Source: Lytechinus pictus (lineage: Eukaryota). Taken from it: 64,000 bases of DNA. Shown piece after piece: positions 1,219 to 64,000 of this stretch. Within the stretch, counting starts at the first letter, position 1, and every line of letters starts with the position of its first letter. Under the pieces are notes generated by a model that saw only the letters and a program-made list of their open reading frames with translations, searched no databases and was not told the origin of the DNA. The DNA lies in contig NC_087250.1 of NCBI RefSeq assembly GCF_037042905.1, forward strand, positions 12,712,001 through 12,776,000, written 5' to 3'. A program made the position numbers and the translations under genes.

Positions 1219-1266
1219 ATTTATTATTTATGTATTTGTTGCATGTCTTCTAGGAACGCATATATA

Positions 1267-3726: not shown

Positions 3727-3946
3727 ATGAGCGACCGCGGAAGCAATCTTGAAGGCCGGCCGGAGACTGTCGCGAACTCTTGGCGGTTCGCGATTCTTCT
3801 GGCAAGGTTTGTCTTATCAGCGCTACAGCAGGGGATGTTGAAGTCGCTCGGGCTACTCATGCCGTACCTAGTCATAAGGCTGGACTCCTCATACGAAACG
3901 ATTGGGTTGATCTTCGCCATGGAGTACGCCGTTTTCTTGATGACAA
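3727..3946 (+). CDS. SLC16-like coding exon 1
   Basis: MSDRGSNLEGRPETVANSWRFAILL...FLMT; donor gtgagt at 3947. Confidence 0.85.
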
Positions 3947-6035: not shown

Positions 6036-6075
<40 letters not shown>

Positions 6076-20129: not shown

Positions 20130-20830
20130 TTTCTCCTTTGGGAAGTTTAAATTCATGTTACTTGTCCACCGAGCCATTCATGGGATGCCGCCACAATATA
20201 CTAAAGATAGCTACATCTGTACAATCCAACTTGTACTTTACGATCCGGAAGAGACAGTTTACTTCTAATTCCTCGTACCCAACATTCCTGGGGGGATAGG
20301 TCCTTCTCACATGCTGCGGCTAAGTTGTGGAATCAACTACCTCTGTCACTCTGCTGCATTAAACTGCATGACACTTTTAAAGTGCATCTTAAGACCTATT
20401 TCTTTAACCTTTAAAGTACTTCGACAACTTAATCCAGATCTATCAGAAATTAGTTTTGTATACATGTAAAGTACACTCTAAATCTTGTTTGGTCATCACT
20501 CACTGGTCTGACTGGCTTCCTATGAGGGCTGGTGCCCTTATATGCTAGAGCTCCTGTGAGTTCTGAGCTGACCGGGCTTGCCCCTTAAATTGTTGGTGAA
20601 CGGAGCAGCAATTAGGAGGGCAACAGGCCCCACCGAATGTAGCTAGGAATTCCGGTGAGTGATGCAAAACTGTTCTTTTTAAAATTTATGTATTCAGTGG
20701 TATTTGTTAAGATATCGTTTTTACTTTGTTGTTTGTATATAAATATATATATCCAAAGGAACTGTTGCTGGGCTAGCGCCATGAGCGTCTCTGGACGGTG
20801 TGTGCACTCAATATTATCATGATGATTACA
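20130..20830 (+). mobile_element. L2-type LINE 3' fragment, antisense in the presumed THSD7-like 3' UTR
   Basis: Encodes GDRSFSHAAAKLWNQLP..FKVHLKTYFF, followed by a 3' UTR-like tail. Confidence 0.7.
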
Positions 20831-20865
20831 TATTAAATCTAACACTGTGGATTTCTGAATCTCTG

Positions 20866-20977
20866 TCAGCATGTGGTTTCTTCCAACATTCTTGTCTTCA
20901 TGCTACTCCTGAGTGATCTTCTGTAGTTTGTTAAGTTTGGTATTGGCTCAAAATGGACCTCCCCTGTATGGTAAAAC
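20866..20977 (-). CDS. THSD7-like terminal coding exon (cytoplasmic tail)
   Basis: Acceptor ttttgcag; FYHTGEVHFEPIPNLTNYRRSLRSSMKTRMLEETTC*. Confidence 0.8.
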
Positions 20978-23900
20978 CTGCAAAAACAAAACGAATAAAA
21001 AATATATTCATGCTAACTGTAAAATTTACTATAGATAGTGCTAAGGCTATTCTAGGCATGTGCAATCAAGGAAATTGAGATAATAATGATAACAATAAGA
21101 TATAGCATTTATGAGGCGCCGATTGATCTACTTTCCTATTCAATGGTGCACTATATATTACCCCTGCTGTAGCTCAAGCTGCTAAAGGCGCTTGGGGCAT
21201 TCAAGGAATTAATCCTGCCGGGTACCCATTCACCTCACATGGGTTGAGTTCAGCACAATGTGGATAAATTTCTCTCTGAAGGAAAACACGCTATGGCTGA
21301 GATTCGAACCCACGCCCCTCTCATTGAAAGACGAGATTCGTAACCACTAGACCACGATGCCCTCACATAGAATTTGGTACGAGTTCCTCTTTTGTTAGGG
21401 GAGGGGGCTGGGACGAAAGCTGCTGGGTAGATATATTTTGATTATTCATTTTAGTTTGAATTACTTAAATTCATTCCTCCACTTCACTGTTGCATGGCCT
21501 AAATCTTCCATCATGGCCATTATTACCATCACCATTATATGCTTCTTCATCTTCATTTTCATCTTTGTAATCATTACCATCACAAGTTGAGAAGGTGCAT
21601 ACTCATTTTCTGGGCGAGTCGTGATCAAATCTCCAAGGAGCCTTTATTCTGAACAATTTCATTTTGACATCATCAATAAAAGATTTTTCTGAAAGCATAC
21701 CTGTATAAGAGTGCTTTTTGACAGACATTGACTCATTGTTCAAACATGTATTATATTTAATTTTTTTTGGTTCGTTGTTGTTCTGCACTGAAGCACCTTG
21801 AGCATCTCATCAAGATGGAAAGTGCACTATACAAGTCTCATGTATTATTTTTATTATTACTAATCGCAAACAACAATGGAAGATGAATTACCATCATCAT
21901 ACAAACCTACAATTCAACGGCCCAAAAATATGGAATAACATGTCTGAAGACCTTAAAGAATGCTCAACAATTACCAGATTCAAAAGGAAACCACATGTAC
22001 CAGATTTACATATTCATAAGTATAAACAATTTTCCTTAAGAGGTGTCTCTTTGTAATTTCAAAATTAATTATTGTAAATGTTCTTGTTGTTTGTTTAACT
22101 GTGTAATCATTTCTCATTGTTATTTGTCTTAATTTATACATATTTTATGCTATGCTTGGGCCCCTGGTGATAAGCTCTTAGCTTTTTAAGGGGCCCACAC
22201 CTTATGTATCAATGCTTGATTTCATTGTACACATTGTAAATATAATTTTTTTATTACTTTTACACATGCTGTTTTAATACTAATTGGTGTTGTACTTGTA
22301 TAAACACCTTTCTGGTGTTAGACCAAAATGAAACTGGTTTTTGTTTAACACTTCTCTGGTGTGGACATACATAGATTCCAGGCTGGTGTTAAATCAACAC
22401 CAGAGTTTTTGCAGTGTGCAAGATGAATTACCATCATCATACAAACCAACAATCATACACCAAATAACTCACCGGTAGACTAATACTCCACATAGAATAG
22501 CTGCTAATATCATAACACCCATGCACACAGCACCAACTACCCACTTCCATGTGCCTGGATGGTAAGAAAAAACAGAGCAAAATATGGTATTTGACCATCC
22601 ACAAAGTCAACCAACAATATATTTGAGATTGGAATATAGTTGGAAGATCAGGTTCTGAGGTTTAAAATAATGTGTAATTAAAAAAAAATATCGCATTCTC
22701 TACAATATATTTAAGAAAAGATTAAAGATATCGTCCAAAAAAAAACACTCTTCTATCTCATTTTATTTCATTTTTTACAGAGGCAGCGATACTGATTCAG
22801 ACAAGCCACTTTTTTAAGTTTTTATTTTTGAAGATATAATGATCTAATAATCTTTAGCTCTTAAGAAGAGTTACATATAGAAGGAGAAAAAAGAAGAAGA
22901 CGAAGAAGGGGGAGGAGGAGAAGGATGCTGATATAAACTCACCTCTTTTGGCATGATAAAGGCTCGTGTTTGAATCAGCGTCGTTGGTTTCTATCCCTCC
23001 TGATGTTGTGCCTATGACATCTTCGGGCACACACTTTAACATACCTAGATAAAAGGAAGAGAGAGAGAGGTGGGGAGAGGAAAAGAGAGATGAAGAGAGG
23101 TGGGGAGAGGAAGAGAGAGATGAAAAGAGGTGGGGAGAGGAAGAGAGAGATGAAGAGAGGATGGTAATTCTTTAATGCCTTATTTTAGATGCTAAAGGGC
23201 CATTCCATGGAGCGTTGTGGCCCAGTGGATAAGTCTCCGGATTTTGAAACAGAGGGTCATGGGTTCAAATCCCAGCCACGGCGTAGTTTCCTTCAGCAAG
23301 TAATTCATCCACATTGTGCTGCACTCAACCCAGGTGAGGTGAATGGGTACCTGGCATGAATTTATTCCTTGAAATGTGTGCGCGCTGTAATCTTATTAAT
23401 TACAGCTGCCAAGCTACAGCTGGGGTAGTAAAATTCACATCCTTTGGAAGCATATAGAGACATTATTCATAATGTGACATGTGCTATACAAGAACTGTAT
23501 ATTATTATTATTCCATAAAATAACACGGACAGCTGGAGGACAGCTTCGCAGTATCCTGCCGGGTAGCTGTCCTCCAGGGGAGTTTTCCCCGGTGGGGTTC
23601 TCATCCAGGGCACTTTTCCTCTTGCGAACAATGATAAATAAAATCTCTACACAAATTATTGACCAAGAAAATACGAGGGGGAAAAAGGAGGGTGGAACAA
23701 AATGGTGGAAAGAGATTGAGACAGAGTGGGATTAAATACTAGAAAAATGATTAATCAATCATCAATTAAATTTTTAATCTTTAACTGAATGAAATCGCCC
23801 AATTTATTAGGAAATCATATCTTCTTTTATTGTGTTTATGTTTTATTACAAAATTACTATAAACTTACCAATGACCGTACAGGGCCCCGGAACACAAAGA

Positions 23901-26900
23901 TTAGTGATGAATAGCAAACATGAGAGAAAACTTCTGATTGGTTCCTGGTCAGTATTCTGCGCCAAATGAGCGTGTAATGTTGATCTTGATTGGTCAGTTC
24001 ATTTAGCGATTGATCGCCAATCTTTGTGTTACAGAGCACATTGCCCATTATTCACAAGGAAGGCGATATAAACTTACCATCGACTGAGTAGTAACCTGGT
24101 TGACAAATGCATGCTCTTTCTTTACTGCACATCGTGTGTGGGAAGGGGCAATGGTCATCTACTATACACCCGACAGAAGGATAGCAGGTTCTCCCATTTC
24201 CTGTTTAAATCAAACGGACAATCACCATTTAATTCAACCAACCTATACCGGCATCATTGTTCACCTTTTTTGTGTGTTTCTCCTGACCCTGATAAAGTAG
24301 ATATATATTATTTTCAATTTGATAAACAAATAGCATTTGTTTATATATTTTTTTTCAAATTAAAGCGACCTTCCATTGACAAATCATGGGGAAATCAAGG
24401 CTAATCTCGGAACAGACAAGGGATTCAAGTCTTTCACTCGGCTGCATGCCAGGGGGTGTTATGTAATAGACGCCGGCATGTCTGGGAGGTATAATATAGG
24501 AGAGCATTAGTCAGTAGACTAACCAACCAGAAATAAACTGCGTGTTTTCACTTTGAAACATGTAACTTAACAGAGGTAATTTATTTTGGTTTAGCAATCA
24601 AGAGACCTGCTAAGAGTCTAGGAATTGGGATTGTGGGAAAATGGAACTGCGACGACCTGAAGTAAATACAATCAAGAGTTCAGTCAAATTTGTGCTGTCC
24701 GAACTTTTATCGCATTAGTCCGATGGGCTCTCATGACGGACGGATTATATTACGCAAGTCAAATTGGCCTTTTGCAAATTTTGTATTGATTCAATTTCCC
24801 CATGATTTGTCAAAGACAGGGTGCATTAATTCAAGCAATTATAAACTTATTTGATCCACAAAGAGTTCTATCATGGTTGCAAATATCTAAGACTACTGTT
24901 ATCCCACGTTACCTATATCTAGTTTAATTTCACCTTACATATTAATTTATGTAGCATTACCACAATGATTTTATTATTTCCACATGTCCTTTTCGGTATA
25001 TGATTAGCAATGTTGTAACATACATGTAGGTAAATTGCCAAATCGTCAACTGCCAACTCGTCTACTTATCACATGGTCTATTTCGTTTAGTCTAATGCCG
25101 TTCTGTCCATCACCATTTCGTCTACCAACCATTCGGTCCAAGTACCATTCGGTCAATCATCACTTCGTCTAATCACCATTTCGTCTCATAACCAGTTGGT
25201 CTAATATCCATTTCATTTTCATTCATTATGCACAAATAACACTTAGTCCAAATCAATGGACTAAATGGCTATTGGACCAAGTGTTTATTACACGAATTGG
25301 CGAGTGGACGAATTGGCAATTAGACCATGAGGATAGTGGACGAACTGATGGTAGACCAAATGATAGTAGACAAGTTAGAAATTGGACGAATTGGAAATAA
25401 ACCGTTACATAGATTTTGTGTTTTGCTTTGTCAAAGATTCCACAATTCAGCCCTTTGCTGTGTTGAAATTTTCTTAATAAATCAATTCAATCAACTTAAT
25501 CAAGTGGTCCTGAACATACCGGGTAAGGTTAAATCCAGCCATGATGGCATTTGATGATTTGGGAATTAGACAATCTGTTTTTTCTGTTTTATGGTAACTC
25601 CGTAGGAGCTCGGCAGGACAGCTTTTTGCTGGTAAACGCCAAGCTGTTATATAACCAATTACCTAGGAAACACTTTACGTCTAGGTTAATCAGTCAAAGT
25701 GGCTGACCTTATAGACGACAGGTATTTCTCTCTGGCCTTATAATCAAAGTGGAGACAATGGCAGATTGGCAATTCGAACTCACAACCTTGCGATTATGAG
25801 TCCAATGCTCTAACCACTGGACCACACGATCTGCCATTAGACCAAGAGAATATATAACACCATTCTTTTTTTTTTACCAAGAAATCCTGAAGAACACTTG
25901 CAGACACCGTTATCACAGTAGCTCCCTAGAGAGGTGCAGTCAGGGACACAGTCTAAAGATGGAGGGGGTTTCACGGTCTCGTCACAGCCCCCTTCTACAA
26001 TCAGGATGTTACCGCTTGCATCTAGAAAGAAGGAATATTTAAGGGGGCGATGTGTTGGTAAGTTATTGCATTCTCCAGGCAAGAACTGGGCTCCGTAACA
26101 CAAAGATTAGCGACTAATCGCTAAATTAAATGACCAATCAAGATCAAGTTACATACGCATTTGGCAAAAAATACTGACCAGGAACCAATCAGAAGTGTTC
26201 TTTCATAATTGCTTTTCATCACTAAGCTTTGAGTTATGGGGCCCAGATGAGATTGATTTGATTTGTGATTTCAAAAAGGATCGGTCCCAAAGCTCTGGTG
26301 ATGTCGTTATTAAGAAAATCTTAAAAAGGCAAACTTCAGACCAAAAATGAGGTGATAAAAGGATTATTTCATGAGATTACAAACTGCTTGTGAGGGCTTG
26401 CCGGAAAAGACATCACATTTTAGTTTGTCACTGTTTGCTAAATTATATTGTGGATGCCATGGTTTATCAAAATTCTAAAACTGTGCTACTTTTTTGTTGT
26501 ACTCTGATAGACAAAATGAGTTAGCTATTCATTCGGCTGGATTAAAAGCTTTAGTTTGATATACTGAACTCATGTTTTGGAAGCTTCTTTGTGTTTCAAA
26601 TTATAACATTTGTCACTCAAACAACTCCTTGCGATATACTTTTCTTCATTTTAATACTCACCTAATGTCTCACACCAGATGTCTCTAGATCGTGTTGCTT
26701 TATCCCACTTTCCTACTGCCCATCTAAACACAGGGCAGCTAGCGCTTACAGCTGGGCAAGATCTACAAGAAAATGGTGGAAATACTGCACTTCAAGTCTA
26801 TTAATATTTTTCTCCACTCTAAGCATGAGAAGTTTTCGCATTTATCATAGAAATTAAATAAAATGAACTTGTTGATTATGACTAAACAAGGTAAACACAA

Positions 26901-29900
26901 AATGTGACCATTTAAGACAGGTGACTGACATATAATGGTGGTCCAAAGTCTGCGACTAACAAATTGAGTTAAGATTTAACATGAATTTCTTTTTATTTCA
27001 CAAAATCTTTCAGTTGATAATGTTCCTTACATCATTATGAGTTAGTGTGCCAAATATCTCATAAAGATTTGAAAGAAATATATGATTTTCTTGGAAAAAA
27101 TCTTGGGCAGTCATTTTCAGATTGAACATAAAAATAGTGCCCCATGTCTGCGCACCCATTCACTTTGGACTCGATTCTGGGATTTTTATGAGAGAGGTTG
27201 CAGAGAGGGAGCGGCCCCCCCCCCCCTCTAACAAAGTACATGTAAGGTTCTACCAAAAACTTTACTTATCTCATTATACATTAAGGACGTTCCACAGTTA
27301 TGTTTGTGCGCATTATGATCTGCGCATAGTTTACACTCCGCGCGCTGACGTCACAATGGATGAACAGGTGATTAATAAGCTGCGGGTATGTGCTGATTTT
27401 TCTCATCTTCTGCACATTAACTGCAGATCCGATGCATTATTTCATGAAGCTAAAAAATTGAATTATTCCATGGACCATTAAAAAAAAGATTCTCTACAAT
27501 TTCAAAATACTTTACTCTGCAGTGCTGCCAAGAATCACGAATATCACCCCGAGTTTGAATAAATGGTAGAGTGGTTTTGATTTTTTCTTCACATAGATAC
27601 AAAGCATTCGGCGCATTTTTGGTGTTTTAAAAAGCACATTTGCTCTAATAAAAATACTGATAGTTTAAAAACAAGCACATGAAGCCCTATTTTTTAATGT
27701 TTGCACCTCTTTGGTATACCTTCCTCTACAACTCTACAAATTTTGGTGAAAATGACATGGATTTTGAATAAAGTGCAGCATTTATTGTACTTTTGTAGTT
27801 TGTTACTGAAATTTCACATTTTTTAGATTGGGATTTTGTTATCTTTTACATCATTTTTAATTACTGACAGTGCTGTTAAACTAAAAATTGCAAACAAATA
27901 GCACTATAAATATATTCTCCATTCTAACGATACAATTATTAACTCTCTTGCGAAATTTGATGACTTTTTCATGTATTTTGACTGAGTAATACAGGTTTAA
28001 ACTCATTGTAGTAATCTTGGGCGGTCTAAAAATGCCAAATTCTTTTGAATGCGCAATTCTTAAAGGTCAAGTCCACCCCAGAAAAATGTTGATTTGAATA
28101 AATAGAGAAAAATCAAACTAGCGAAACGCTGAAAATTTCATCAAAATCGGATGTATAATAAGAAAGTAATGACACTTTAAAGTTTTGCTTATTTTTCACA
28201 AATTTTTCTCAAATGAGAAAGTTGATGATGTCCCTCACTCACTATTTCTTTTGTTTTTTATTGTTTGAATTATACAATATTTCATTTTTTTATAGATTTG
28301 ATAATGAGGACCAACTTGACTGAATCATATCGTATTAAACAATGCTCATTTCACATGTTTAGGGAGGAATTAATCGTTGTTTCACTTGACAATGAGGAGA
28401 AAAAAAATATTCCCTATTTTTTTACAATAAAATACAAAAGAAATAGTGAGTGGATGACGTCATCAGTCTCCTCATTTGCATACCCACCAGGATGTGCATA
28501 TAACTGTTTTGCGAAATTAAGCAAAATTTTAAAATGTCATAACTTTCTTATTTTACATCCGATTTTGATGAAATTTTCAGCGTTATGTTTGTTGGATTTT
28601 TCTCTATTTGTTCAAATCACCTTTTTGTTGGGGTGGACTTGTCCTTTAAGAACATCAATTTGGGTGAACTTTGAAGTTCTATAGCAAAAAATCAAGCACA
28701 TGGACCTATGTTAATTTTTGCATATTTCGAATATTAAGGTTCTAAAGTATCTATGTGCAAAGTTTGGTGAAAATGACATGGATTTCACTTTAACTGTGGA
28801 ACGTCCTTAAATGTACCTTGAACTGATTAGATTGGTGGTACACGGCTTGCCTCCCGTCACTGGTGGACTGGTAACAACTCTCACCCTCGTCTTCTGACCA
28901 CTGATACTGGAGTTGAAGCAGTTACCAGTACAAGATGAGTACGGAGACCATTCTGACACCTAGTAAAAAAACAAATACATGGGAGATTGGTAACAACTTT
29001 CATCCTAGTTTTCTGACCACTGATACTGGAGTTACTGCAGTTAGCAGTACAAGATGTGTATGGTGACCATTCTGATAACTAGCAAACAAGAAATACATGT
29101 ACATGAGAGAATGGCTACAAATACTTTGCTAACTTATATTCAGCTTTCAATCAACATGAATCATTAGAAAAGAAGGGGATTAATGGAATTATAATAACGA
29201 GAAAATGGGGCATTTTTTATCATTTGATGCCACATATTGAATATTCTTAAGGTTCGGGGGGGGGGGGGGGGGGGGGTAGATGGTCCGAGTGATTTTTAAG
29301 AATGCAAGAAAATTGTAAAAATGTATCTCACCAGACAATCCCCTGGACACCAAGTGGTACACTTGCGAGAAGTGGCTAGATCCAGAGCAGACCGGTTGAA
29401 AGCAGATCCAAGTGGGTTGACCACATCATTGTTCAAAGCTTTGCATAAAAGAACACAGAATGGAAAGAAATTTGTAACTTTTTTAACAACAGTGAGTGAA
29501 GTGTCTTACATCAGAAAAATTAGATAACATATCGTAGTGGCAGACCATTATTTAAGATAATAATCTCTAGACTGAAAAACACACAAACTAAAAAGCTCTC
29601 ACCGTTCAGATAGCAATATTCCCAGTCTACCGTAAGTCCATCACTGCGTTGGCATTCAACGAGTCTCATCTCTTGTCCGACTCCGCAACCAGCCTTGGTA
29701 TCAAATTGGCAGGCGCTCCAGTTTCCTTTGTACCACATATAGGTGAAGCAAGGTTTGATGTTGCAAGGCCTTGTCTGGTAAGAGATGAACGATTTAAAAT
29801 GAAATATGGAAGTGTATAATCAAATACAACCATTTAATTTTAATAGGCCCATTCATACAGCTCCGAAAATATTTCAATATCATCTTCCTCTTCCTCCTCT

Positions 29901-30317
29901 CCCTCTTCATCCTCATAGTCATTCCATTCCTTACATCATCTCTTCCATCATTGTTGTCATCAACACATTATCCTCACAACTCCCACCACCACCACTGACA
30001 TCAATATCTTCAACGTCATCATCAACATGCTACGTCATCATCATATCCATCACTATCAACATCATCAACATCGTCATCTTAATTGCCATCGTCATGCATG
30101 TCATCAATATCATAATCATCTAATTTTCCTTCATCATCCATGTCAATGTCATTGATAACAAAATCACCATCATCAAGATCATAATTATCATCAACACCAT
30201 CATCATCACCAGCATATCCATCACCATATTCAATATTACCATTATCATCATCATCCTCATCATCAAAATGATGATGATCATCATCACCATTATTATCATC
30301 ATCATCATCATCACCAC

Positions 30318-30355
<38 letters not shown>

Positions 30356-33300
30356 CCTTCATCTTCATCATCACCATCATCATCACCATCATCATCATCA
30401 TCACCACCACCATCATCACCATCAGATCTGCATCTTCATCCTCCTAACCACCTTACCTCATTGAGGCTATGTGCATCCTGGCATCTCCGACCGTGCCCGG
30501 AGGACCTGGTGACGATCTTCCGAGTCCTGAACGTGATGCCATTGGTCCCACAGATCGCGCTGCAAGATGACCATGGTGTAAACGCCCCAAGTTGACAATC
30601 TATTGGACATTCAACCATGCATGTTTCATGGGTCGTGATGTTTGCGTGTTGGCAGCGGTCCATGGTCACGGGGATGTTGGCAGCGTTGACGCAGTTAAGA
30701 GTTCGGAACCGGGTTCCTAGTGGTAAAGGAGAGGTAAACAGCGTTGAGATTGTTGACAATAATATCTCTTTGTGGTGAGATGATCATATTTTGACCAAAA
30801 CTATGTGACCTTTGACCTTGTTCTTAACTTGCAATCAGATCATTGGCTTTCCGATATGTACACATTATTCAAGATTGAAATAATTTTATCAATAAAACCA
30901 AGCTTCAGTTATCTTGTGAAAAGATATTTCAACACAAGTTACTTTGACCGTGTGACTCACAAAACTAATCAGATCATAGTCAATCTTGTATGAGTAAATG
31001 GAACAAATTTAGTAGTGTAGTAGGTTTCATGGTCCACCATCTATCTTTCTAGGGCGAGTGTTGGTCCTGAAAAGGACCACCCAATCTAAGATCTCAGATA
31101 TTATGACCCAATCTCAGATTGGGTGGTCCTTTTCAGGACCAACACTTGCCCAAGGAAGATACATGGTGTACCGTAAAACCTACTACATTATTCTTCTTCG
31201 CCATGGAAACCTTCAGAAGTCATTTAGTCATTACCTATAAATTTAATTACTGCACAAATGAAAATGGAACAGAAAGATGTAAGAGCAACTGACAACCTGA
31301 AAAGAAAATACCTCTGGCAATCATGTGATGCTTGTTGCCATAGTAGAGCATGCTATTTTATTCATGAGTCAACTCAGGGGCAGATCCAGGATTTTCCAAC
31401 GGGGGGGGGGGGGGGCACATTTTCCAGAGGAAGAAAAAAGGTGTTCACCCCAAAAGTAGGACATTTCATCCAAGAAAAATTTTTAAAGCAAGGTTTTCAC
31501 TTTCAGGGAGGGGGGGGGGCACGGGTCAGCTGTACCCCCCCCCCCTGGATCCGCCAGTGAGTCCATCGTTAAGAACAGTGGATTTATTGGTTCAAAAGAG
31601 TGGACTTGTTAATAAAATTTGGCGCACATCACTCTGACAAAATCACGCATCAGCATTGGAATTGTTTAATATATGCAGTAAATTAGGCGCAATTCATACA
31701 GGAAATCTGCATAAACCATGAGTTCAACAGACGGTTTCAAAACCACCATTGTGAATTTGTGCCATATCGGTCTTTAAGCTATGCACAACAATACAGACAA
31801 CTAAAGGCCTCGTACCTCTCCCGCACTCTCCCTGGATGGGCCTGCAAGTGCTCCACTCTCCCGTAGCCAGCGTGAAGACCGATGCTAAGCAATCCACCTG
31901 AGAACAGGCTTCAGTCTGCCTGATTGGTATGCAAGGCTGCAGCTCGGCATCAGGGCGAATCACGATCCTGCTCCGAGATTTTTTGGCGCTCGTGCACGGC
32001 TGACTGCAGCTTGTAAATGCGGACCACTCGCTGAAAACGCATTCACCTATATTAGGCATAAAAGAAATGAGGTTTGTGTAAGTGAAAAAAAAAATATGCG
32101 TGACCCCTGCATTACACACAGACAAAAGACGGGGAATGCAAAAAAATTGAATTTGTTTGTACAAACTAAAGAAATATCTGGAGAGTTTTTCTCCTCTTTC
32201 AACTAATATCATCTTCTAAATATTCTCTATCATCTCATTCAAACAATCATCATCATTATTCAAAGAATCATCATCATCATTATTATTACCACCATTATCC
32301 CCTTTACTACCACAACCACCAAACATCATCATCACCATCATCATCATCATCACCATCACCACAATCACCACAATCATCCTCCTTATCATAATTATCATCA
32401 CCATCATCATGTTGATCACTATTGATGCTCGGCCACTATTATCACCACCAGCACCTTCATCATAGTCACCATCATCATCATCTTCAGCATCATGATCAAC
32501 ATCATCGTCATCATTATCATTATCATCAACATCATCATCAACACCATCATCATAACCACCAGCACCCTTATCATCATTACCATCATCATCACCACCCTTA
32601 TCATCTTCATCATCAGCACCAACATCATCATCATTATCATCATCATCAATCATCATCTTCAGCATCATTATCACCATCATCATCATTATCATCATCACCA
32701 TTACCACCATCATCACCACCCTTATCATCATGATCACCATCATCACCACTACTGCCATCACTATCATCATCATTACCTTGGCAGGGTAAATGACAAGCCT
32801 GCGTCAGAGGCGGCCTTGGTGTTCTCCCTTGACACAAGCTTTCGTTCCCAACGCCTGCTGGACAATTTATGGTTCTGGACTGAGTTCCTGCTCCACAATT
32901 AGTCTTCAGATCTGTAGGTAGACAGGGCGCCCACTAGATCAGAACACAAAGAGAGGACAGTACAATTATTGCATACTTTTCTCTGAATAACCGGGGAGAA
33001 ATGATCCCTGTCCCCAAAAATCTACATCCCCAAAGACCTCTAGCATCCGTATCCATACAGAAGTTGAAACCAGGTGGGTGTTTGATATAAATGTTTGTAA
33101 GTTACGAACTAACTTACGATTGACTGGCAATAGATGTACCTTCTTGTGCTTTACATAAATCAATGAGAAACAGATTATAGCATCCAAGATGGTATCATCT
33201 TTAGTTTGTAAAGTCACTTGTCAAAAGTCCAAACTGCATCTTTCGTGCAAGAATTCAGCAAGTGGCCTCTCATTACCAATTCTCACACTTACTGGTATTA

Positions 33301-36300: not shown

Positions 36301-36485
36301 GTGCGCCTCTAATGCATACTTAAATCTTTGTGAAAAAAACCCCAGGTATGTAAAAGATGGCTTGAAATTCAGTATGCAAGGACTACGGTACTACTACTTC
36401 ACTACTATTAATATTGCTGTAATTAATACTACCATCACTGCTAAAACCACCACTACTACATGTACAACTCCTACTACTACTACTT

Positions 36486-36522
<37 letters not shown>

Positions 36523-38899: not shown

Positions 38900-38941
<42 letters not shown>

Positions 38942-39027
38942 CAGTAGCAGTAGCAGTAGCAGTAGCAGTAGCAGTAGTAGTAGTAAAAGTAGTAGTAGTA
39001 GTATAAGTAGTAGTAGTAGTAGTAGTA

Positions 39028-39097
<70 letters not shown>

Positions 39098-39135
39098 CAG
39101 TAGTAGTAGTAGTAGTAGTAGTGGTAGTAGTAGTG

Positions 39136-39194
<59 letters not shown>

Positions 39195-39298
39195 GGTAGT
39201 AGTAGAAGTGGTAGTAGTTAGTAGTAGTAGTGGTAGTAGTAGTAGTGGTAGTAGTAGTAGTAGTAGTAGTGGTGGTAGAAGTAGTAAAAGTAGTAGTA

Positions 39299-39353
<55 letters not shown>

Positions 39354-39358
39354 TAGTA

Positions 39359-39446
<88 letters not shown>

Positions 39447-39533
39447 CAGTAGTAGTAGTAGTAGTAGTAGAAGTAGTAGTGGTAGTAGTAGAAGTGGTAG
39501 TAGTTAGTAGTAGTAGTGGTAGTAGTAGTAGTG

Positions 39534-39581
<48 letters not shown>

Positions 39582-39582
39582 A

Positions 39583-39654
<72 letters not shown>

Positions 39655-51600: not shown

Positions 51601-52459
51601 AAGCAGAATTCATCAGCTACTGGTGACAGTACGTCGCTCCTGCTATCAATGCAGAAGACTTGCCTAGTCTCAATACCAGCCCCACATGGGGCACTCGAAT
51701 TCTGGGTTACTCTGCACTGCTGCCAGTCCTGATATAGAATAGAATCAAATAAAGTTTAGAATCAAGACTACCAACTGATATCTGACTATCAATGGTAAAT
51801 TGCCAATTCTTCCACTGCCAACTCGTCCACTCACCACCTGGTCCACCTTCATTTAGTAGTCTAATGCCATTCTGTCCATCAACATTTTGTCTAATGACCA
51901 TGTGGTCTAATAACCATTTGGTCCATGCGATCATCACTCCTCATCATCATCACTATCATTCATCACCACAATAATCGTCTTCATCCTCATCGCGATCAAC
52001 CCCACCACCACTACTATCCCCCTCCTTCTCCTCCCCACCCCCTCCCACCTCCTCTTCCTCCTGCTTATCATCAACATCATCATTGTCCTCATTTGTCAAT
52101 ACCACCACTATCACCCTCCTCCTTCTCATCATCACCATAGCGACCATTGGTACCAATGTTATGACCTACCTGGAGATATACCATTCGTACTGGGGACATG
52201 CTGTCATGTTTTGAATCAAGCAAGGCTAATGATCCGTCAGAGGGGGGCATGGGAGCCCCCCATCATCATCACCACCATCACCATCATCATCACCATCATC
52301 ACCATCATCATCACCACCATCACCATCATCATCACCATCATCATCACCATCATCATCATCAATTATCATTATCATCATCATTATCATCACCATCATCTTC
52401 ACCATCACCATCATCACCATCACCATCATCACCATCATCATAATCATTTATCATCATTG

Positions 52460-52492
<33 letters not shown>

Positions 52493-52501
52493 ATTATCAT
52501 T

Positions 52502-52533
<32 letters not shown>

Positions 52534-55063: not shown

Positions 55064-56984
55064 CTGGAATTTAAACAAAAAAAGTTATCAATTGGTTTGA
55101 AATCAGATCAAACATTAGAGCTTTGACCTTTGCCTTTTACACTACACACTCAGGTTAATTACTAACAGATAGTGCAATGTGACTTATATGCCTATACATG
55201 TACATGTATATGCGCCGGTATATGCGTATAAGGACCAAGTTTGAAGTTGATCCACGACCCCAAAGCATTATACATGAAATGCTTCCGTCAAAGATCTATG
55301 GCGTGCAGAAGCATAAAAATCTAAACATAAAACAGGTATGCAAATTATGCAATGTGATCAAATTAGTTTTTGTAATTAAGACAAAGATTTACTTTCAAAA
55401 GAGTCGCCAGTTTTCACTGATATGGACTGTTTATGCCCATCGAACCTGCTCACGGGTTAGTATTACTACATAGCATACTGTGTTTGCCAAGTTTTGGATG
55501 TGCATGGATACAGAAAGCTTCCATCAAATACTTCTAAATCTAGAAGAAGTAGATTGGATTGGTCCTCGATCGCAATCTATTTCAATCTAAGAAATTTAGA
55601 GAGTGCGTTTTTTCTAAGATTCGCTGTATTTACATTTGCTTTATCATATATGATTTGTATCAAAGAAGAAAGTCACAAAGAATGTGATGTTTTTAACACT
55701 GAAGAACAGTGCATCAATTGGGTCTCTTGTTTACTATGAACTTGCTCTGGGTTTTCTTCCATTTCATGATCGAACTATTTAGTGACAGTGAGGAGAAATC
55801 GCTCGTTCACTAGCATTCGCAATAGGTTTTGCACGTAAGTGGAGCTTGATGTGGGAGAGCCAATCACGTCTCTGGTACTCTCATACACGTCATCGAATTT
55901 GAGTCAATTCAGAGGCCGATGCGAGGCATATTTCGGAGAGGCATTTTAGCGCTTTTTAATTGGCGATTTCCATCTTGTGTATTATTTTCGTTATTTTCAA
56001 ATGGCCTAATGATAATCCCCAAATCATTACCTTTCCATTGAAATATAATAAGGCCATATGTTCAAAATCAATATATTTCTCCTTTAAAATGAAATAAACA
56101 TTTTCTCTATAGATATAGTAATGTTCATGTTCTTCTCCGCTGGACCTTGCTTTCTTCCTCTTGTTATTGTGCAATAACCTTTTGAAATACTATGATCTTA
56201 GAGCATTTTCCATTTTAACTGGTTCATTTCTAATGCACAAATGCATTAGTAATGTATACTTGGATCACAAATTTTCTTTTCCTTGGATTTCTTTCAAACA
56301 GTGCAATACATATTCATTGGAATTTTCATTTTTGTCCCAGTTCAATAACTTGATTCCATATACATGTAATACTAAATAATTTTAATTACACTACTCAAAA
56401 AAATCAATTGATTAATTGCCATTTTTTAACATCATTTTGTCATTTCTCTAGAGCAGTGGCCTTCAAAGTGTAATTTCACATTTTGAATGATATAATAGTA
56501 TATAGACCAAGACATATTTCCACGTGCTACAAGGAAAACAAATATTAAAATAATAATAATAATAATAATAGTCAGTTTGTTTTGTGACAACTGTGCAAAG
56601 GTGATACTGCATCCTGATAATTTATATTTTTTAAACTGTCTGTTGACCTTTCTAGCCAAATCATTAATTTTTATAGGGTACTCAAAGAGACAAATAGCTA
56701 GTACATGGGAAAGGATGTTCCTAAATCAAACTGTGTCATGTCCATTAATCAGACCAAACCTCCTTCAAAAATAAATGTAGTTCACCACACCAAAGGTCAT
56801 TTCAGACTGTGTTGGTTTAAACCACATTATAGATCACCATCACATCGCTGGTCTGTGTAATGAGTTATATGAGGTATTACAGGACATTGATACTCTCTAA
56901 TTGGAGAAAGACGAGGATGATAACCCCCCCCCCCCCCCCGAAAAATAGAATGGAAGGAAAGATAGAAGACAGTGGATTGAAAAA

Positions 56985-57170
56985 AAGAATGGATGGATGG
57001 ATAGATGGATGGATGGATGAATGAATGAATAAATAAATCAATCAATCAATCAATAAATGAATAAATAAATAAACAAATAAATGAATAAATAGATAAATAA
57101 ATAAATAATCATTAATTAATTATTTACAATCAATGAATCAATGAAATCAATAAATAATGAATTAATGAAT
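56985..57170. repeat. Compound (GGAT)/(GAAT)/(CAAT)/(AAAT) tetranucleotide microsatellite
   Basis: Seen directly. Confidence 0.9.
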
Positions 57171-60125
57171 TACTAGTAAAATTTTACTAAATTAATCAAT
57201 ATACATAAAAAAATATTCAACAATAAAAGAGTAGTCCTACATACATACGTGTACACAAGAGAGGCAAAACAATTAACTTTCATCAGTGCCGGAAGAAAAA
57301 ATAATGGAATTTTCAAGTTAAAATTGAATCATTTGGAGGAAAGTGGTCAACTATGCACCTACATGTAATCCTAACTTTGGGGTAATTTTCAAACACTTTA
57401 AAAATACAGTATCGTTATTTTATCACTGAAAGTGAGGTGTTTTCATTTATACAGTCGGCAACTACAACCACATTTTTTTCAGAGTAGATTTCTAATTTTC
57501 TACATTATCATGTGCATTTCGCGTTCTACTGTACATGCCTTAATAAGGAGCAATGTGCAGGGAACAATTATGCTTCTCAAATTTCAAAGCTGTTACACGG
57601 AAATTGATTACAACAAAATTCTGTTTCATGCTACATGTACAAAAAAAAGATATTTTTCTTTTTTATCACTCTATATCTTACACCTTTTGTAAATTTTGAG
57701 CCAGGTGTTAAGATCTCATATAACAAATCACTGATCAAAAGTGCATGATGATATTTATTTTGGTACATGAGTAATTAAAACATTTCCTCAGGCGATCATC
57801 CGCAGGCAACATAACAGCTACCACCTGGAGAAAGAAGTTTGCCAGCTATCCTCAGATGATTTTACTCTTTGACTCATTATGAAATAATGTGTTTGTACAT
57901 AATGCAACTTAGCTGATTAACTCTTAACATGCCATGAACACATATCTGTGCATCCACTGGACTGCCACGAAAACTATTTTGTGCAATGGTCATACAGCTA
58001 TTGTTATGCCTATTGCATTTTGAGGAGTGCATTGCATGCATGGGTGATTCCATTATTCAATTCAGCTTAATATGGTCAAGAGGTTTAACATTATTGTCTC
58101 AAGAGTGATTCCCTGTTTATTATAAATAAAACAATGAAATATAGACTCTTTGAAAAAAAATGGCACTCGCTGATTACAGTGAATATGGCACATTAAGAGT
58201 GAAATGTTTGGGATGAGAGACTTTTCAAAATTACTTTTGAATATTAAAATAATACTTTAATTTGTTGTTCATTCGATTTTTACAATTTCATGATTTCAAT
58301 CCTTCAATTAATTGCAATCTTTGAAACTTGCCGGAATAATGATTTGCATAGTATGGCTCAAGTGATAATGTATCAAGATAAATATAGTCTAGCAAGTGCT
58401 GTCATTTTTATACATGTACATTATATTGTTTTTATACAAAACCTAGGTCATAATCATGTATTGTATATATGTTTTTACTTTGTAAATATGATAATATGAG
58501 TCTTCTGAATTATGTCATGTAATCATTTCTCACAATAAAAACAAAACTGTATAGAATTGAATTGAATATCCTTAGCACACTCACGGTCAGTATTACAAAC
58601 TGTGCCCAGAAAGAGAGAGAGAGAGGGAGAGAGGGGGGGGGGGCACTTACATGTACTTCCAAAATCACTTGTTCTCATTATTGGTACACCTCTTACCAGT
58701 CACAAAAGAAGTTTCCTCCTAAGAAGATTTTGACAAGGAGACTTGACAACCTTTTCTAAATTATAGGTACCAAACACATAACTGAAAATATGCTTTTTAA
58801 TCTTTATACATGTTACGTGCTGTTTGAAGGCAGCCACTCAAGTTGTTTTAAAAAATGAAACAAATGTTTAAAGTTTTAAACAACTTTTTGTTTAAAATAA
58901 CAGCTTTAAACATTGTGCTTAAAATGTAAACAGCATTTTCATGCTAAACACTGTACACTCATTGTAGGCAGTATGGAAATTGATTTTTAAACAGGTCTAC
59001 ATGTCTACCAACTCTGAAAGGTGACTGACAGCCAAGACAGAGGAACAAACTACTTATAAATTTTCCAGAAATAGGAAGGAGCATTTTTAAATTTTATACA
59101 CATATTAAACTGGGCCTCTTTCCCCCTAAAATATGAATATTTCCTAATAGAAACACTCATTTGAAAAGAGTGATATCAGATACTTATCAGTGTCTTCCAA
59201 GAGGAAAGCGATGCATAGCTTGCTTGCTGGTTCACCCAGCATGAAATGACCAATCTACACAAACATTTCCATTTTGCCCCCCAAAATAGCATGATATTTT
59301 TATCAGTTTTCACTTTTTTACACAATTTTGGTGAGGATATCTATAGCTTGGAACCATGGAGAATAGTATTGAAGAAGTATGAAAAATAATTGTACAATCT
59401 CCCTATCGCTTTTTTTTGGGTGACCCCACCCTCTTAGCCCGTGATAAGAATGACATTTATTTCTTAATTTTTTATATACATGTATATTTTTAAATATTTT
59501 TTTAAACTTTCCAACAAATGACAGCGTCTCTAAAAAACAGCAAGGCCAGAGGTTGTTACAGATTGATACAGATTGGCTCTGAATTGTGCCAGCCAAACAT
59601 TTGGAGTTATATTTTATAAACTTAAGGATTAACTATTAAGTAAAACACAAATTCAAAACTTCCAAGCTACATACAAATTGAAAAAAAAATCTAAGGTTAG
59701 AAATCCTGTGTTTGACAGGTAACTTAAAACTGAAGCTGTCCTGAATTAAAAGACATTGTTCAAAATCAAATAAAAACAAACATTTCAAAGTTGACGATGA
59801 ATAAGAATAATTTATCACCATGAATTTTGTCATTCTCTGTAACAGTGTTGTAAATCATAACAGTCTATAACCAATGCATAATGATAAATAGACTTTAGCT
59901 CTGTCAAACAGCAACGTTTCTTCATTAAATCTTGCTTTTCTTAATTGGATTTTGGGCTAATTATTGCCACCCTCCTTTCCGTTCCATCCTCTTTTTAGAC
60001 ACTTGGTCAATTAAGTCATCAAGAGAGATGTTTTAATGTGTCAAACACTGTCTGTATCTTTAGGCTACCAGACAACACATCAAGATAACGCTGTATACTC
60101 ATCCCCATTCACACAACAAATAAAA

Positions 60126-60303
60126 GCGTGTGTATTTGAATTTTGTCAGACGTGTATCAATCAGATATGATTATTTACGTCTGGGACCGACCTTTAACGT
60201 CACCATCCGAAAGACGTGACCAGGGCTCGAACCTCGAACCTCTGCATCAATTTGTAACTTCCCCACATAGCTTGGATTACAGGCGCACGCCACAACGCCC
60301 AGT
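60126..60303 (-). mobile_element. Candidate 7SL(SRP RNA)-headed SINE
   Basis: Minus strand ACTGGGCGTTGTGGCGTGCGCCTGTAATCCAAGCTA (7SL Alu-domain-like), GGTTCGAGCCC B box, core shared with SINE family A, 3' hairpin, ACACAC tail. Confidence 0.65.
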
Positions 60304-61152
60304 TGTACAGGTGCATACATGTACATACATGTATACAACATTGCACTAGTTAACGTTTACCAACCACTACATAAAATCCCTAAATTGCATATTGTTATCA
60401 TTTCAACTAGCACTTATGTCTCGGTGTGTGACCCTACACAGTAAAAAAAAACACATTTCTTAAAAGCCTACACAAGTTGTTTAAACTTTTTTTTATAATT
60501 GTTTAAACTTAAAACAACTTGTTGTTAAAATGACAGGCTTAGAAAATGTGCTATTTTTTGTTTAATGAAACAAACATCAATTTTAAACAACTTGTTAAAA
60601 AAGGAGCCTCAGAAAATACTCATTCAGTGCAATATTAAAGCTTATAGGTAGCAGATTTTGGGAGTAGATGGTAAAAAAAAGTAGCCCCCAAATTTATATT
60701 TAAAAAAAAATCTTTGCCTGGAGCAGTAACTGCAGTTTAATAAATTTCTTTGAGTGTGAAATGGCCCGGAGTGCACCTAATAAAGCGAGGTGAGAAACTA
60801 CAAGTAGGTCATAATAAAAGTTTAACAAGGAAATGAGTCATTCACACACTAGAGGGTATCATTCATTAGCACTGATTACATTTCATAATTGGGACCACCT
60901 TCCCCAAGACAAGTAGCTCTCCCCCCCCCCCCCCCCCCCCTCATCCAATTAAACGATCAATGGGATTAGATGGAGGATCAGAAGGATCATTAATGATCCT
61001 GGAATTGGATTGGGCTCTCACCTTGAATTATTACACCTGGGCCCATTGCATAAAACATTTTTGGTAACTACCATGGCAACTGCTCAGCAGCCAATCAGAA
61101 TCGAGGATTCCATTAAAGATGCCATTGGATGGCAAAGTTACCATAATATTAA

Positions 61153-61736
61153 AGGAGAATGAAACTCTTGGAGCAAGTTAGCTTTTGTGAAAGCAGAAAA
61201 GTAAAAGAGTAAGATCAACAAAAGTTTGAGTAAAATAGGACTAGCAATAGAAGAGTAATGAGTATTTGAATGTCGAGATCACTAATGCTATGGAGATCCT
61301 CCCATTGGCAATGCGACCAAGATCTATGATGTCACAGATGAACAACTCTCCCCTTTTAGACACTGAAAATATATCCCAAAACATCTCTTTTTGCTCATTC
61401 TAATCATATGACAAACGATTCATCATTGATATAATGTTGTGAAACCTCTGTACTTGTCCTCTCGTAAAGAGAACACCTCACCTTGTGATAGACTCTATAA
61501 AAGTGAGAATATAAGTGAAATAAGTACTAAAGTAATGAGGGAGTTGTACGTGTGTGACATCACAGATCTTGGTTGCATTGCCAATGGGAGGATCTACATG
61601 GCATTAGTGATCTCAATATTCAAATGCTCATAACTTTCTTATTATTCATTCAATCTGCCTCAAACTTTCAACAATATGTTTCTTTGATTTTTCTCTTTGA
61701 TATGGATTCAGCTGGTTTCAAGGGTTTCATTCTCCT
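61153..61736. mobile_element. Kolobok-type MITE inserted in a Harbinger-like MITE
   Basis: ttaa|aggagaatgaaac ... gtttcattctcct|ttaa; long internal inverted repeats. Confidence 0.85.
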
Positions 61737-61974
61737 TTAACTTTCATGCAATGGGGCCCTGGGAGGGTAGCAAAACAAGATTAATTTTACAATTGATATG
61801 TGATCTCTTTGTCCTAGGATTGTCATACATGTTCACTATGGTAAATATAGTAACAAGTAATTTTACAATTGGTTGTCTATGTTTTATGAAGGGGCATTAC
61901 ATGTAGGGCCTGAGGATAATACAAATAGGCAAAATATTTATTTACATAACAGCTCTATCTTTTGTAGCTCTACA

Positions 61975-62925
61975 GAAAGAACGGGAGAGAAAGGGAGAGC
62001 GAACAGGAAAGGGGAGCAAAGGGGGAGGGGTAGGGGAAGTACATGTACATGAATGGAGAAAGATATTGAGCATGGAGAGATAGGCGAGAGACAAGTACAT
62101 GTAGGGCTTCATTACTCGTAGGGGCAACAATGGAAGATGGGGGAGGGGAGATAGAGGGGTGGGGAGAGGAGGGGGAAGAGAGAGAGAAAGGGAGAGAGGG
62201 GAGAGGATCAGGAAGGGGGTAAGGGAATTATGGAGAACAATATGGAGGGAGAGATAGGCGAGGGACAAGTAAGGCTACATACATGTAGGCCTTGTAGGGG
62301 AATGGAAGATGAGGAAATGGTGATGGAGGGGTGGGGAGAGGAGGGGAAGGAGAGAGAAAGGGAGAGAGGGAATCATGGAGAACAATATATAGGGAGGGAG
62401 ATGTAAGTGTGAGTGAGGGAAGAGGAGGGAGGGAAGCTGAGGGTGGGAGGTGGGGAGGGGAAGGGGTAGAGGTGGGGGAAGGGGTAGAGAGAGAAATTCA
62501 GTAATATGGTACAGACCATGCCTGGGAGGGAAGAGGACAAGTAAGGCTACATACATGTAGGGGAATGGAAGATGAGGGAGGGGAGATGGAGGGGTGGGGA
62601 GAGGAGGAGGAGGAGAGAAAGTGAGAGAAGGGAGCAGATCAGGAAGGGGGGTAAGGGAATTATGGAGAACGATATGGAGAGGGAGATAGGGAGGGAGATG
62701 TAAGTGCGAGTGAGGGAAGAGGAGGGAGGGAAGCTGAGGGGGGAGGTGGGGAGGGGAAGGGGTAGAGAGAGAAATTCAGTAGTATGGTACAGACTATGCC
62801 TGGGAGGGAAGAGGAGAGAAGAGGACGAGATGGGATATGGAGGGAGAGATAAGTAGGTGAGGGAGATGAAGGGAGAGGAAGGGGGAAGTGGAGATGGAGG
62901 GGGGGGGGCAGGATGGGGAAGAGAT
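61975..62925. repeat. Polypurine GA-rich tract with ~270-300-bp imperfect internal duplications
   Basis: ~62270-62545 and ~62545-62815 share aaggctacatacatgtagg and gagagaaattcagta.tatggtacagac. Confidence 0.85.
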
Positions 62926-63690
62926 ATAGTTGGTAGACTAAATAAGATAATGTTATCCCCAGGCTTTATCTGACTGGAATGCAGATGGATCAATTGAGAG
63001 AGACTGAGACAGCTTGTCCACCCATGGATGCATCATGTACACTCATGAACTAAATACTCTTCCATTTATAATACTGGGCCACATTATCTTACAGCTACAT
63101 ACATGTACACTATATTCCAAACTATTTGTTGCTGATCTGTCAAAATGATAGCAATCACTTTTCCCCACAACAGATTTAGAAATGATCCTGTCTTTGTGTC
63201 TTTGCTAAACTGTCATTTGTATCATAAAAAGAAATCTTTGAATTAAAAAAAAATCCCAGACTTTATGGCAAATATGTACTTGCAATTGTAAAGTTTCTAT
63301 CTACAATACATGTATGTTGATAACAAAAGGGTTTTTACATGCATCGGATTTGGGATTTGATGAACAACTGATTTATATTTAAATGAAAAGGGACATTGCC
63401 ATCCCATTAATAAATCATAAAAATATACCTTACAATTCAGTAGAAGTTGAATTAAGGCTATAATTAAGGTCCTAAAATTGAAGTTGCTATTTCCATTTTG
63501 CTTTTTTTTGTCATGTAATAGCAGAAGAATAATCTTGATAAATAGTTTTATCCTGTTTTGGATTCTTTAAAAGGCATGTGATGAATGACATCCAAGGGAT
63601 AGTCATTTCTTCACAAGTCAGATAACTTCCTCTTTGTACTATAAAATTATTTCAGTTGATATCATGACCTTGACGAAAGGTGAATAGCCA

Positions 63691-63917
63691 CCAAGGGTGG
63701 GTGGGGGGAGGGGCACTTCAATTGACTTTCTTAGCGAAATAGAATAGATACCCTTTCTTCATTATTTTAGTGTTTTTGACACCCTTATTAGTTATTACGT
63801 TCCGTACATAACATGCCCTATCTTGAAAAAGACATCCTTTTTACATGTTTTTTTTTTGGTCGCGCATAGTATCCACTCGTCAATGAAAGTGCTCCCCCCC
63901 CCCCCCCCCCACCCGGG
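63691..63917. mobile_element. MITE with cccggg(G)n-cact termini
   Basis: ..ggggcacttcaattgac ... gtcaatgaaagtgctcccc..cccggg; direct repeat atagcca on both sides. Confidence 0.72.
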
Positions 63918-64000
63918 ATAGCCACCAAACATCACTACTTTTTGGATAATAGCAAATTCTTAGGTCTGAAATTAGACTACTGGTTGGTTTAAGACGAATC

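What the first reader, a model, noticed from the sequence alone, without database searches (positions are those of the whole stretch)
20461..63314. TACATGTA, the Tc1-type excision footprint, is strongly enriched and almost confined to the THSD7-like locus
Seen: by eye I count 35 exact copies, at 5167, 20461, 25021, 27237, 29094, 33443, 36175, 36457, 36577, 36666, 37291, 42167, 42543, 44180, 44237, 45709, 50714, 53817, 55195, 55201, 56361, 57360, 57632, 58411, 58648, 59477, 60316, 60326, 61898, 62040, 62096, 62280, 62552, 63100, 63307. Only one is in the first 20 kb; my rough composition estimate is ~2 per window. Several look like secondary +6 insertions at a TA: inside the (TAC)n tract (actacTACATGTActac), in one of two duplicated units (28974 aatacatgg vs 29092 aatacatgtacatg), and as tandem TACATGTACATGTA. 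One overlaps the splice donor at 42174. Established: TA-CA-TG-TA is the classic Tc1 footprint. Candidate sources with CA..TG ends at TA occur here (1267-3291, 7728-9798; TACAGTGG at ~44064). Inference: the locus records dozens of insert-and-excise cycles, or another TA-directed 6-bp insertion process, biased to one transcription unit or chromatin domain.
Basis: partly seen in the sequence, partly recalled or inferred. Interest (0 to 1): 0.75.

Follow-up and report, generated by a model that had tools for sequence, protein, structure and literature searches.

The report
Transposon exit scars in urchin introns
One eight-letter word, TACATGTA, is about twenty times too common in the introns of a sea-urchin gene and is most likely the six-letter scar a cut-and-paste jumping gene leaves when it exits, but it is not special to this gene.

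Summary
All 35 TACATGTA copies lie exactly where stated. About 2-5 are expected; 34 lie beyond base 20,000. The dense field begins at the 3' end of a minus-strand THSD7A-like gene of Lytechinus. It peaks at 1.9/kb in the CpG-poorest intron, against 0.06/kb in the CpG-rich first 15.5 kb. CpG-decay intermediates are absent. Removing CATGTA leaves TA sites with AYR-TA-YRT flanks (YR half-sites 35 of 60 vs 24% background), like Tc1-family targets. One in-window paralogue shows a clean 6-bp gap; other comparisons are ambiguous and one is negative. Best reading (0.7): germline excision footprints of TA-targeting CA…TG Tc1-like elements. Polymorphism in other animals could not be tested. The motif is not THSD7-specific: the scan already noted it at four other places in this genome and in coral (unchecked notes). 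The footprint itself is known. Its density, uniformity and bias to CpG-poor gene bodies were not found in nine literature searches.

The parts
20461..63314 (.). Field of 34 exact TACATGTA palindromes (20461, 25021, 27237, 29094, 33443, 36175, 36457, 36577, 36666, 37291, 42167, 42543, 44180, 44237, 45709, 50714, 53817, 55195, 55201, 56361, 57360, 57632, 58411, 58648, 59477, 60316, 60326, 61898, 62040, 62096, 62280, 62552, 63100, 63307); about 1% of TA sites
20866..55066 (-). THSD7A-like gene, coding exons for residues 198-1552 (25 exon blocks listed, 4302 bp, no motif inside; 1.6 expected); stop at about 20866-20868; 20461 lies just 3' of the stop, probably in the 3' UTR
   Evidence: Pfam TSP1 domains; tblastn of named Lytechinus pictus and L. 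variegatus proteins, P0017 essentially identical in exons
55067..64000 (-). Intron upstream of the exon for residue 198 (residues 1-197 have no match in the window): densest part, 17 motifs, 1.9/kb, 2.35% of TA, CpG o/e 0.34
36175..36182 (.). Motif in the left arm of a small inverted-repeat element (about 36126-36345); the right arm aligns with a single 6-bp gap exactly here
29094..29101 (.). Motif beside a decayed duplicate (about 28985-29099) of the functional exon 28816-28959 and its acceptor; the functional copy lacks the extra six bases; alignment ambiguous
36457..36673 (.). Three exact copies (plus a TACATGTT variant at 36559) in an old, degenerate (TAC)n tract with 86 TA; none in the purer (TAG)n tract 38790-39830 with 270 TA
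42167..42174 (-). Motif on the splice donor: it gives two GT donors 6 nt apart in the same phase (GTACAT then GTATGC)
   Evidence: protein P0001 reads EETG-T-S, as if the downstream donor were used, while P0002 and P0017 read EETG-L
55195..55208 (.). Stacked double copy TACATGTACATGTA
62096..62559 (.). Copies at 62096, 62280 and 62552 in a triplicated purine-rich unit; probably one or two events copied
5167..5174 (.). The only copy in the first 20 kb, in a tandem subunit of a repeat; sister subunits are the same length, so no sign of a +6 insertion; probably chance
1267..3291 (.). Candidate donor: TA-flanked 2025-bp element with CA…TG ends, 26-bp perfect terminal inverted repeat, target flanks ATA-TA-TAT, no transposase-like ORF seen
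7728..9798 (.). Second copy of the candidate donor (94% identical), target flanks ATA-TA-TAG
44064..44073 (.). TA followed by CAGTGG: possible solo Tc1-like end; no partner end found within 6 kb
3706..15483 (+). MFS transporter gene (exon limits read by eye) in CpG-rich, motif-poor DNA (exon CpG o/e 0.88 vs 0.61 for THSD7 exons): the contrast region

Best explanation
The copies are germline excision footprints. A Tc1/mariner-type element with CA…TG ends inserts at TA, preferring AYR-TA-YRT, and duplicates the TA. It is later cut out with a 2-nt stagger, leaving two element bases on each host end. Both ends are filled and joined, giving TA-CA-TG-TA, a net gain of CATGTA. Each scar offers two new TA sites that already have a preferred half-flank (TA|CAT and ATG|TA), so scars attract re-use and stack. 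They pile up in CpG-depleted, presumably methylated and transcribed gene bodies, of which THSD7A is one among many in this genome. Shown here: the excess, its boundary, the flanks, one clean +6 gap, matching donor candidates. Inferred: the insertion-excision history, the donor family, methylation itself (from CpG o/e), and the cause of the regional bias.
For: Excess about 7-20x depending on Markov order, and sharp: 36 one-mismatch neighbours vs 27-34 expected. CATG is the only non-microsatellite spacer of TA-N4-TA that stands out (34; next 13). Collapsed flanks: YR half-sites 35 of 60 vs 24% (p=2e-8) and YRT 18 of 60 vs 7.8%. After dropping 12 doubtful sites: 24 of 46 (p=4e-5) and 11 of 46 (p=7e-4); control TA-N4-TA words give 24% and 6.7%. 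SB, ZB and Bari prefer ATATATAT (PMC7913693 passage). Clean 6-bp gap at 36175, whose collapsed site holds no CATG to duplicate. Two intact TA|CA…TG|TA elements have the same AT-alternating flanks. Tc1 leaves 2-nt non-complementary 3' overhangs and TACATGTA is a recovered product (PMC4490562 legend and supplement). Density follows CpG depletion (Spearman -0.42, p=0.016, 32 bins).
Against: No alleles from other animals were seen, so no site is shown polymorphic. Of the sites with an in-window paralogue, one is clean, 29094 and 62096 are ambiguous, 37291 is weak and 5167 is negative. Known Tc1 and rice excision spectra are heterogeneous (26 products in 103 wild-type worms; 8 of 94 perfect in rice), yet one product dominates here; other products would be invisible to a word count. 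Intact CA…TG elements lie only in the motif-poor first 10 kb, none in the 44 kb with 34 scars, the reverse of the 1:1-2:1 insertion:excision expectation. Within 20-64 kb the CpG link is not significant (rho -0.22, p=0.32; local test p=0.09). The YR flank bias could partly reflect origin in purine-pyrimidine tracts.
Confidence: 0.7

Rival explanations
1. Still an excision footprint, but from a TA-targeting element whose ends are CATG…CATG, cut with a 4-nt stagger. The two CATG overhangs would be complementary and religate into one uniform product, which would explain the single dominant scar.
For: Explains the uniformity better than non-complementary 2-nt ends. Footprints of 2-4 bp are general for the superfamily (PMC7913693 passage). 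TACATG half-sites are also enriched beyond 20 kb (42 vs 5, p=9e-4).
Against: No convincing TA|CATG…CATG|TA inverted-repeat pair in the window (best 12 of 16, chance-like). The 4-nt-stagger precedent (Minos) is recalled and was not confirmed by my search.
Confidence: 0.1
2. A TA-directed six-base insertion process with no lasting transposon, such as abortive integration or an unknown repair or templating route, active in methylated or transcribed chromatin.
For: 34 scars and no intact donor in the same 44 kb; sharp regional boundary at the gene end.
Against: The inserted CATG is constant whatever the flank, so it is not copied from local sequence as hairpin or template-switch products are; element ends are the only source I know. 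Flanks match transposase preference.
Confidence: 0.08
3. Mutation bias: CpG deamination and slippage in purine-pyrimidine tracts converge on TACATGTA in methylated DNA.
For: The motif tracks CpG depletion. Three sites (29094, 44237, 62040) could be plain 6-bp tandem duplications. Flanks are YR-rich.
Against: Precursors and intermediates are absent: TACGCGTA 0, TACACGTA 0, TACGTGTA 1. Sister decay palindromes TATGCATA 2, CACATGTG 0, AACATGTT 2 are not enriched. CATG density outside the motif is nearly flat (4.8 vs 5.3 per kb). The 36175 gap has no local template.
Confidence: 0.07
4. Selected binding sites for a homodimeric factor (Irx homeodomain, or a NACC1-type BEN domain) clustered in this gene.
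For: TACATGTA is cited as the preferred Irx site and as an abundant promoter motif in Phytophthora (PMC3520976 passages). NACC1 BEN was crystallised on a duplex holding it (PMC11472053 passages).
Against: Copies sit in a repeat arm, a microsatellite, next to a dead exon copy and on a splice donor. No degenerate halo of near-matches. No significant tight clustering (p=0.09-0.13).
Confidence: 0.05

Closest known systems
Tc1 excision footprint TACATGTA of Caenorhabditis elegans (PMC4490562, class L in Supplementary Data for unc-22(st192))
   Same: Identical 8-mer; net +6 at a TA; explained by 2-nt 3' overhangs from CA…TG ends.
   Different: In worms it is one of many products at single assayed sites (10 of 36 lig-4, 3 of 39 polq-1, in-frame products only). 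Here it appears to mark about 1-2% of intronic TA sites in a natural genome, with no donor shown.
Sleeping Beauty / ZB / Bari target preference and footprints (PMC7913693)
   Same: TA target in an AT-alternating palindrome, as in the collapsed flanks and at the two candidate donors.
   Different: ZB leaves 0-3 bp. The 3-base scars TACAGTA/TACTGTA are not enriched here (3 and 6 vs 3.4-4.9 each).
Genome-wide DNA-transposon excisions between rice species (PMC4423477)
   Same: Natural excision scars read from genomes.
   Different: Heterogeneous (8 of 94 perfect) and outnumbered by insertions; here uniform and far outnumbering intact elements.
Phytophthora motif-1 TACATGTA (PMC3520976; PMC11134190 seen as listing only)
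   Same: Same 8-mer, highly abundant in a eukaryote genome; the authors noted the Tc1 footprint.
   Different: Read there as an upstream transcription-factor site and the footprint idea was rejected; here the copies are intronic and behave like insertions.

Membership tests
Tc1-type excision footprint | Sequence TA + two terminal bases of each end + TA | tested here: met
   TACATGTA equals Tc1 class L; 35 exact copies
Tc1-type excision footprint | Net +6 relative to an empty TA in a homologous copy | tested here: inconclusive
   One clean (36175), two ambiguous (29094, 62096), one weak (37291), one negative (5167); most sites have no paralogue
Tc1-type excision footprint | Host flanks match the transposase target preference | tested here: met
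   AYR-TA-YRT enrichment vs background and vs control words; compared with ATATATAT
Tc1-type excision footprint | A TA-duplicating TIR family with CA…TG ends exists in the genome | tested here: met
   1267-3291 and 7728-9798; non-autonomous, superfamily not proven
Tc1-type excision footprint | An allele with the element still inserted at a footprint site | not testable with these tools
   No genome held; no read-level data obtained; no echinoid DNA in viral or metagenome scans
Tc1-type excision footprint | A DD34E transposase that recognises these ends and cuts with a 2-nt stagger | not testable with these tools
   No transposase-like ORF noticed among 94 ORFs of 90 aa or more (read by eye, not scanned against profiles)
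CpG-decay product | Precursor and one-step intermediates present | tested here: not met
   TACGCGTA 0, TACACGTA 0, TACGTGTA 1
Transcription-factor site cluster (Irx/BEN) | Degenerate variants enriched and sites conserved across species | tested here: inconclusive
   Variants not enriched overall, 36 vs 27-34; conservation not testable

The most novel reading that the evidence does not exclude
In this urchin, and perhaps in corals and other methylating invertebrates, germline transposition is largely hit-and-run and concentrated in methylated gene bodies. Elements enter and leave so fast that uniform in-frame +6 scars become a major mutation class, reaching 1-2% of intronic TA sites. Scar density would then be a fossil map of germline gene-body chromatin and a direct count of past excisions, and scars could create tandem in-phase splice donors as at 42167.
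Probability: 0.3. Interest if true: 0.78.

Novelty: new variant of a known kind. Interest (0 to 1): 0.55.

Why it matters
Excision of DNA transposons usually leaves scars too varied to count. A uniform scar would allow excision rate, target preference and germline break repair to be read from genomes and population data in a tractable model; Minos transgenesis works in L. pictus (PMC11361634). It would also test whether gene-body methylation marks where elements land or where they are removed. The THSD7 locus itself is not special, so the value lies in a genome-wide study.

Tried and rejected
No whole genome was held, so genome-wide density was not measured. The run search gave 10 DNA runs from 4 studies, each holding only 0.05-0.10 of the words; these shares are no evidence, and no read-level result was obtained. 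A 20-base repeat pattern found 0 viral loci and 2 unrelated metagenome loci. The inverted-repeat scan was swamped by TAC/TAG tracts. I first read 62096 versus 62280 as reciprocal empty sites; a global alignment fits one shared copy equally well, so I dropped that. I first took the collapsed donor GTATGC at 42167 as ancestral evidence, but another donor of this gene (28816) also reads GTACAT, so it is weak. A +4 scar class (TACATA/TATGTA, 48 vs 27-42 expected) is unclear, and its strand bias follows the general A/T skew. Absence from exons (0 vs 1.6) is not significant. No CATG-terminal element was found. Literature searches showed no paper on TACATGTA excess in echinoderms or other marine invertebrates. 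The library lacks most subscription papers, only the top listings were seen for the larger searches, and bioRxiv supplements are closed.
Full report
Observation. The 35 coordinates are exact and complete. Markov expectations for the window are 1.7-4.7 at orders 0-4; higher orders are inflated by the word itself. TACATGTA is the top 8-mer palindrome (35 vs 14 for the next). One copy lies in the first 20 kb (p about 4e-5). Some copies are not independent: 62280 and 62552 (probably also 62096) share a triplicated unit, 55195/55201 are stacked, and three sit in one TAC tract. I estimate 28-33 events.

Setting. No genome was held. Pfam finds alternating TSP1 domains in 7 of 8 minus-strand exon pieces tested, an MFS domain at 12496-13353 and a reverse transcriptase at 16364-17260. 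Named Lytechinus THSD7A-like proteins map to exons from 55066 down to 20869; the L. pictus protein P0017 is essentially identical in exons. Residues 1-197 have no match in the window, so 55067-64000 is intron. Motif density is 0.06/kb in 1-15483 (CpG o/e 0.82), 0 in the LINE-bearing gap, 0.26-0.94/kb through the gene and 1.9/kb in the last intron (CpG o/e 0.34; 2.35% of TA). The field therefore starts at the gene's 3' end. CpG o/e is 0.61 in THSD7 exons and 0.88 in MFS exons. I infer that THSD7A is gene-body methylated and the MFS gene is not; invertebrate methylation targets gene bodies and introns (PMC8857917, abstract and passages). Across 32 bins the motif correlates with CpG depletion (rho -0.42, p=0.016), but not significantly within 20-64 kb (p=0.32).

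What it is not. CpG decay needs TACGCGTA and its one-step products; they number 0, 0 and 1, and sister palindromes are not enriched. CATG outside the motif is nearly flat (4.8 vs 5.3 per kb). One-mismatch neighbours total 36 against 27-34 expected, so the word is sharp. Read as decay, this gives a rough mean age of 0.01-0.035 substitutions per site, upper bound about 0.09. TACATG half-sites are also enriched beyond 20 kb (42 vs 5), so older or partial copies may exist. A binding-site cluster (Irx, cited in PMC3520976 passages; NACC1 BEN, PMC11472053 passages) fits poorly with copies in a repeat arm, a microsatellite, beside a dead exon and on a donor.

Evidence for a +6 insertion at TA. I compared 33 of 35 sites with the rest of the window; most have no paralogue. 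At 36175 the two arms of a small inverted-repeat element align with one 6-bp gap exactly at the motif, and the collapsed site has no CATG to duplicate. At 29094, beside a decayed exon duplicate, collapsing improves the match to the functional copy (score 65 vs 55), but a global alignment places a 5-bp gap elsewhere and tandem duplication is equivalent. 62096 is ambiguous, 37291 weak, and 5167 shows no length gain, so the lone early copy is probably chance. The old TAC tract has 3 copies in 86 TA, the purer TAG tract 0 in 270. Independent support comes from the flanks. With CATGTA removed, half-sites read YR in 35 of 60 (30 sites; 3 TAC-tract sites, 1 duplicate and 1 stacked copy left out) against 24% of 2879 background TA, and YRT in 18 of 60 against 7.8%. 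Dropping 12 of 35 doubtful sites leaves 24 of 46 and 11 of 46 (p=4e-5, 7e-4), while other TA-N4-TA words match background. This AYR-TA-YRT pattern agrees with the ATATATAT preference of SB, ZB and Bari (PMC7913693 passages).

Mechanism. Tc1 excision leaves non-complementary 2-nt 3' overhangs (PMC4490562 legend). In that paper's supplement, TACATGTA is 10 of 36 lig-4 and 3 of 39 polq-1 revertants (only in-frame products are recovered). It forms without ligase IV, so the urchin repair route is open. In worms, NHEJ governs somatic empty-site formation (PMC13148408 passages). Candidate donors exist here: two 2-kb TA|CA…TG|TA elements, 94% alike, with targets ATA-TA-TAT and ATA-TA-TAG. The 3-base scars TACAGTA/TACTGTA are not enriched. 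By inference, each scar creates two TA sites with a preferred half-flank, which would favour stacking as at 55195; tight clustering overall is not significant (p=0.09-0.13). Two things remain unexplained. One product dominates, though worm and rice spectra are mixed. And the 44 kb with 34 scars holds no intact CA…TG element while the scar-free first 10 kb holds two, against an expected insertion:excision ratio of 1:1 to 2:1 (PMC4423477 passages). Rapid in-and-out movement, selection against long intronic insertions, or a CATG-ended donor with complementary overhangs could each account for this; no CATG-ended element was found in the window.

Splice donor. The copy at 42167 fills intron positions +2 to +9 and creates a second in-phase GT six bases on. 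P0002 and P0017 use the first donor. The fragment P0001 reads one extra Thr and then a frameshifted copy of the same exon, as if the second donor were used. This is a predicted model and only a hint.

Locus specificity and novelty. Earlier notes of this scan report the same field 3.0 and 7.7 Mb before and 1.1 Mb after this window and on another piece (YY1, PLCL2 gene bodies), and in coral introns with a CpG-poor bias. These are unchecked AI notes, used as leads only, but they make a THSD7-specific process unlikely. The footprint is known. Nine searches showed no report of its mass accumulation in marine invertebrates; the nearest is Phytophthora motif-1, read as a factor-binding site. The decisive haplotype comparison remains undone: no read-level data were obtained, and collection scans held no echinoid DNA. 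Verdict: real, most likely Tc1-type excision scars biased to CpG-poor gene bodies (0.7); a new variant of a known kind; interest 0.55.

Noticed in passing
window 28985-29099 and 52067-52263: Two decayed tandem duplicates of THSD7A exon parts (of 28816-28959 and 52619-52747), each with a stop codon; protein model P0001 also splices into a frameshifted copy of the 42176-42437 exon.
   Followed up: partly
window 27284-28807: A 1.5-kb inverted-repeat element sits a few bases inside the intron after the exon at 28816 and carries a nested 600-bp MITE (28057-28656, second copy 43391-44000).
   Followed up: no
window 16364-18172: Broken non-LTR retrotransposon fragment (RVT_1 hit, frameshifted) between the two convergent genes.
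   Followed up: partly
window 38843-39738: A 900-bp (TAG)n tract with about 270 TA sites and no footprint, next to an older (TAC)n tract with three; suggests time-dependent accumulation or target avoidance.
   Followed up: partly
window 41152-41957: Intronic tandem array of 162-192-bp units from a dispersed repeat; fragments resembling it also at about 48350-48560.
   Followed up: no
window 55067-64000: TACATA 14 vs TATGTA 1 on the plus strand; partly explained by the general A/T strand skew of the gene and by copies adjoining the motif.
   Followed up: partly
window 60435-60450: TA followed by CACAGTAAAA, a possible solo end of another CA-starting TIR family; no partner end found.
   Followed up: no
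literature, PMC3520976: The same 8-mer is upstream of 12,070 Phytophthora genes and was read as a factor-binding site; an indel test for a footprint origin may be worth doing there too.
   Followed up: no
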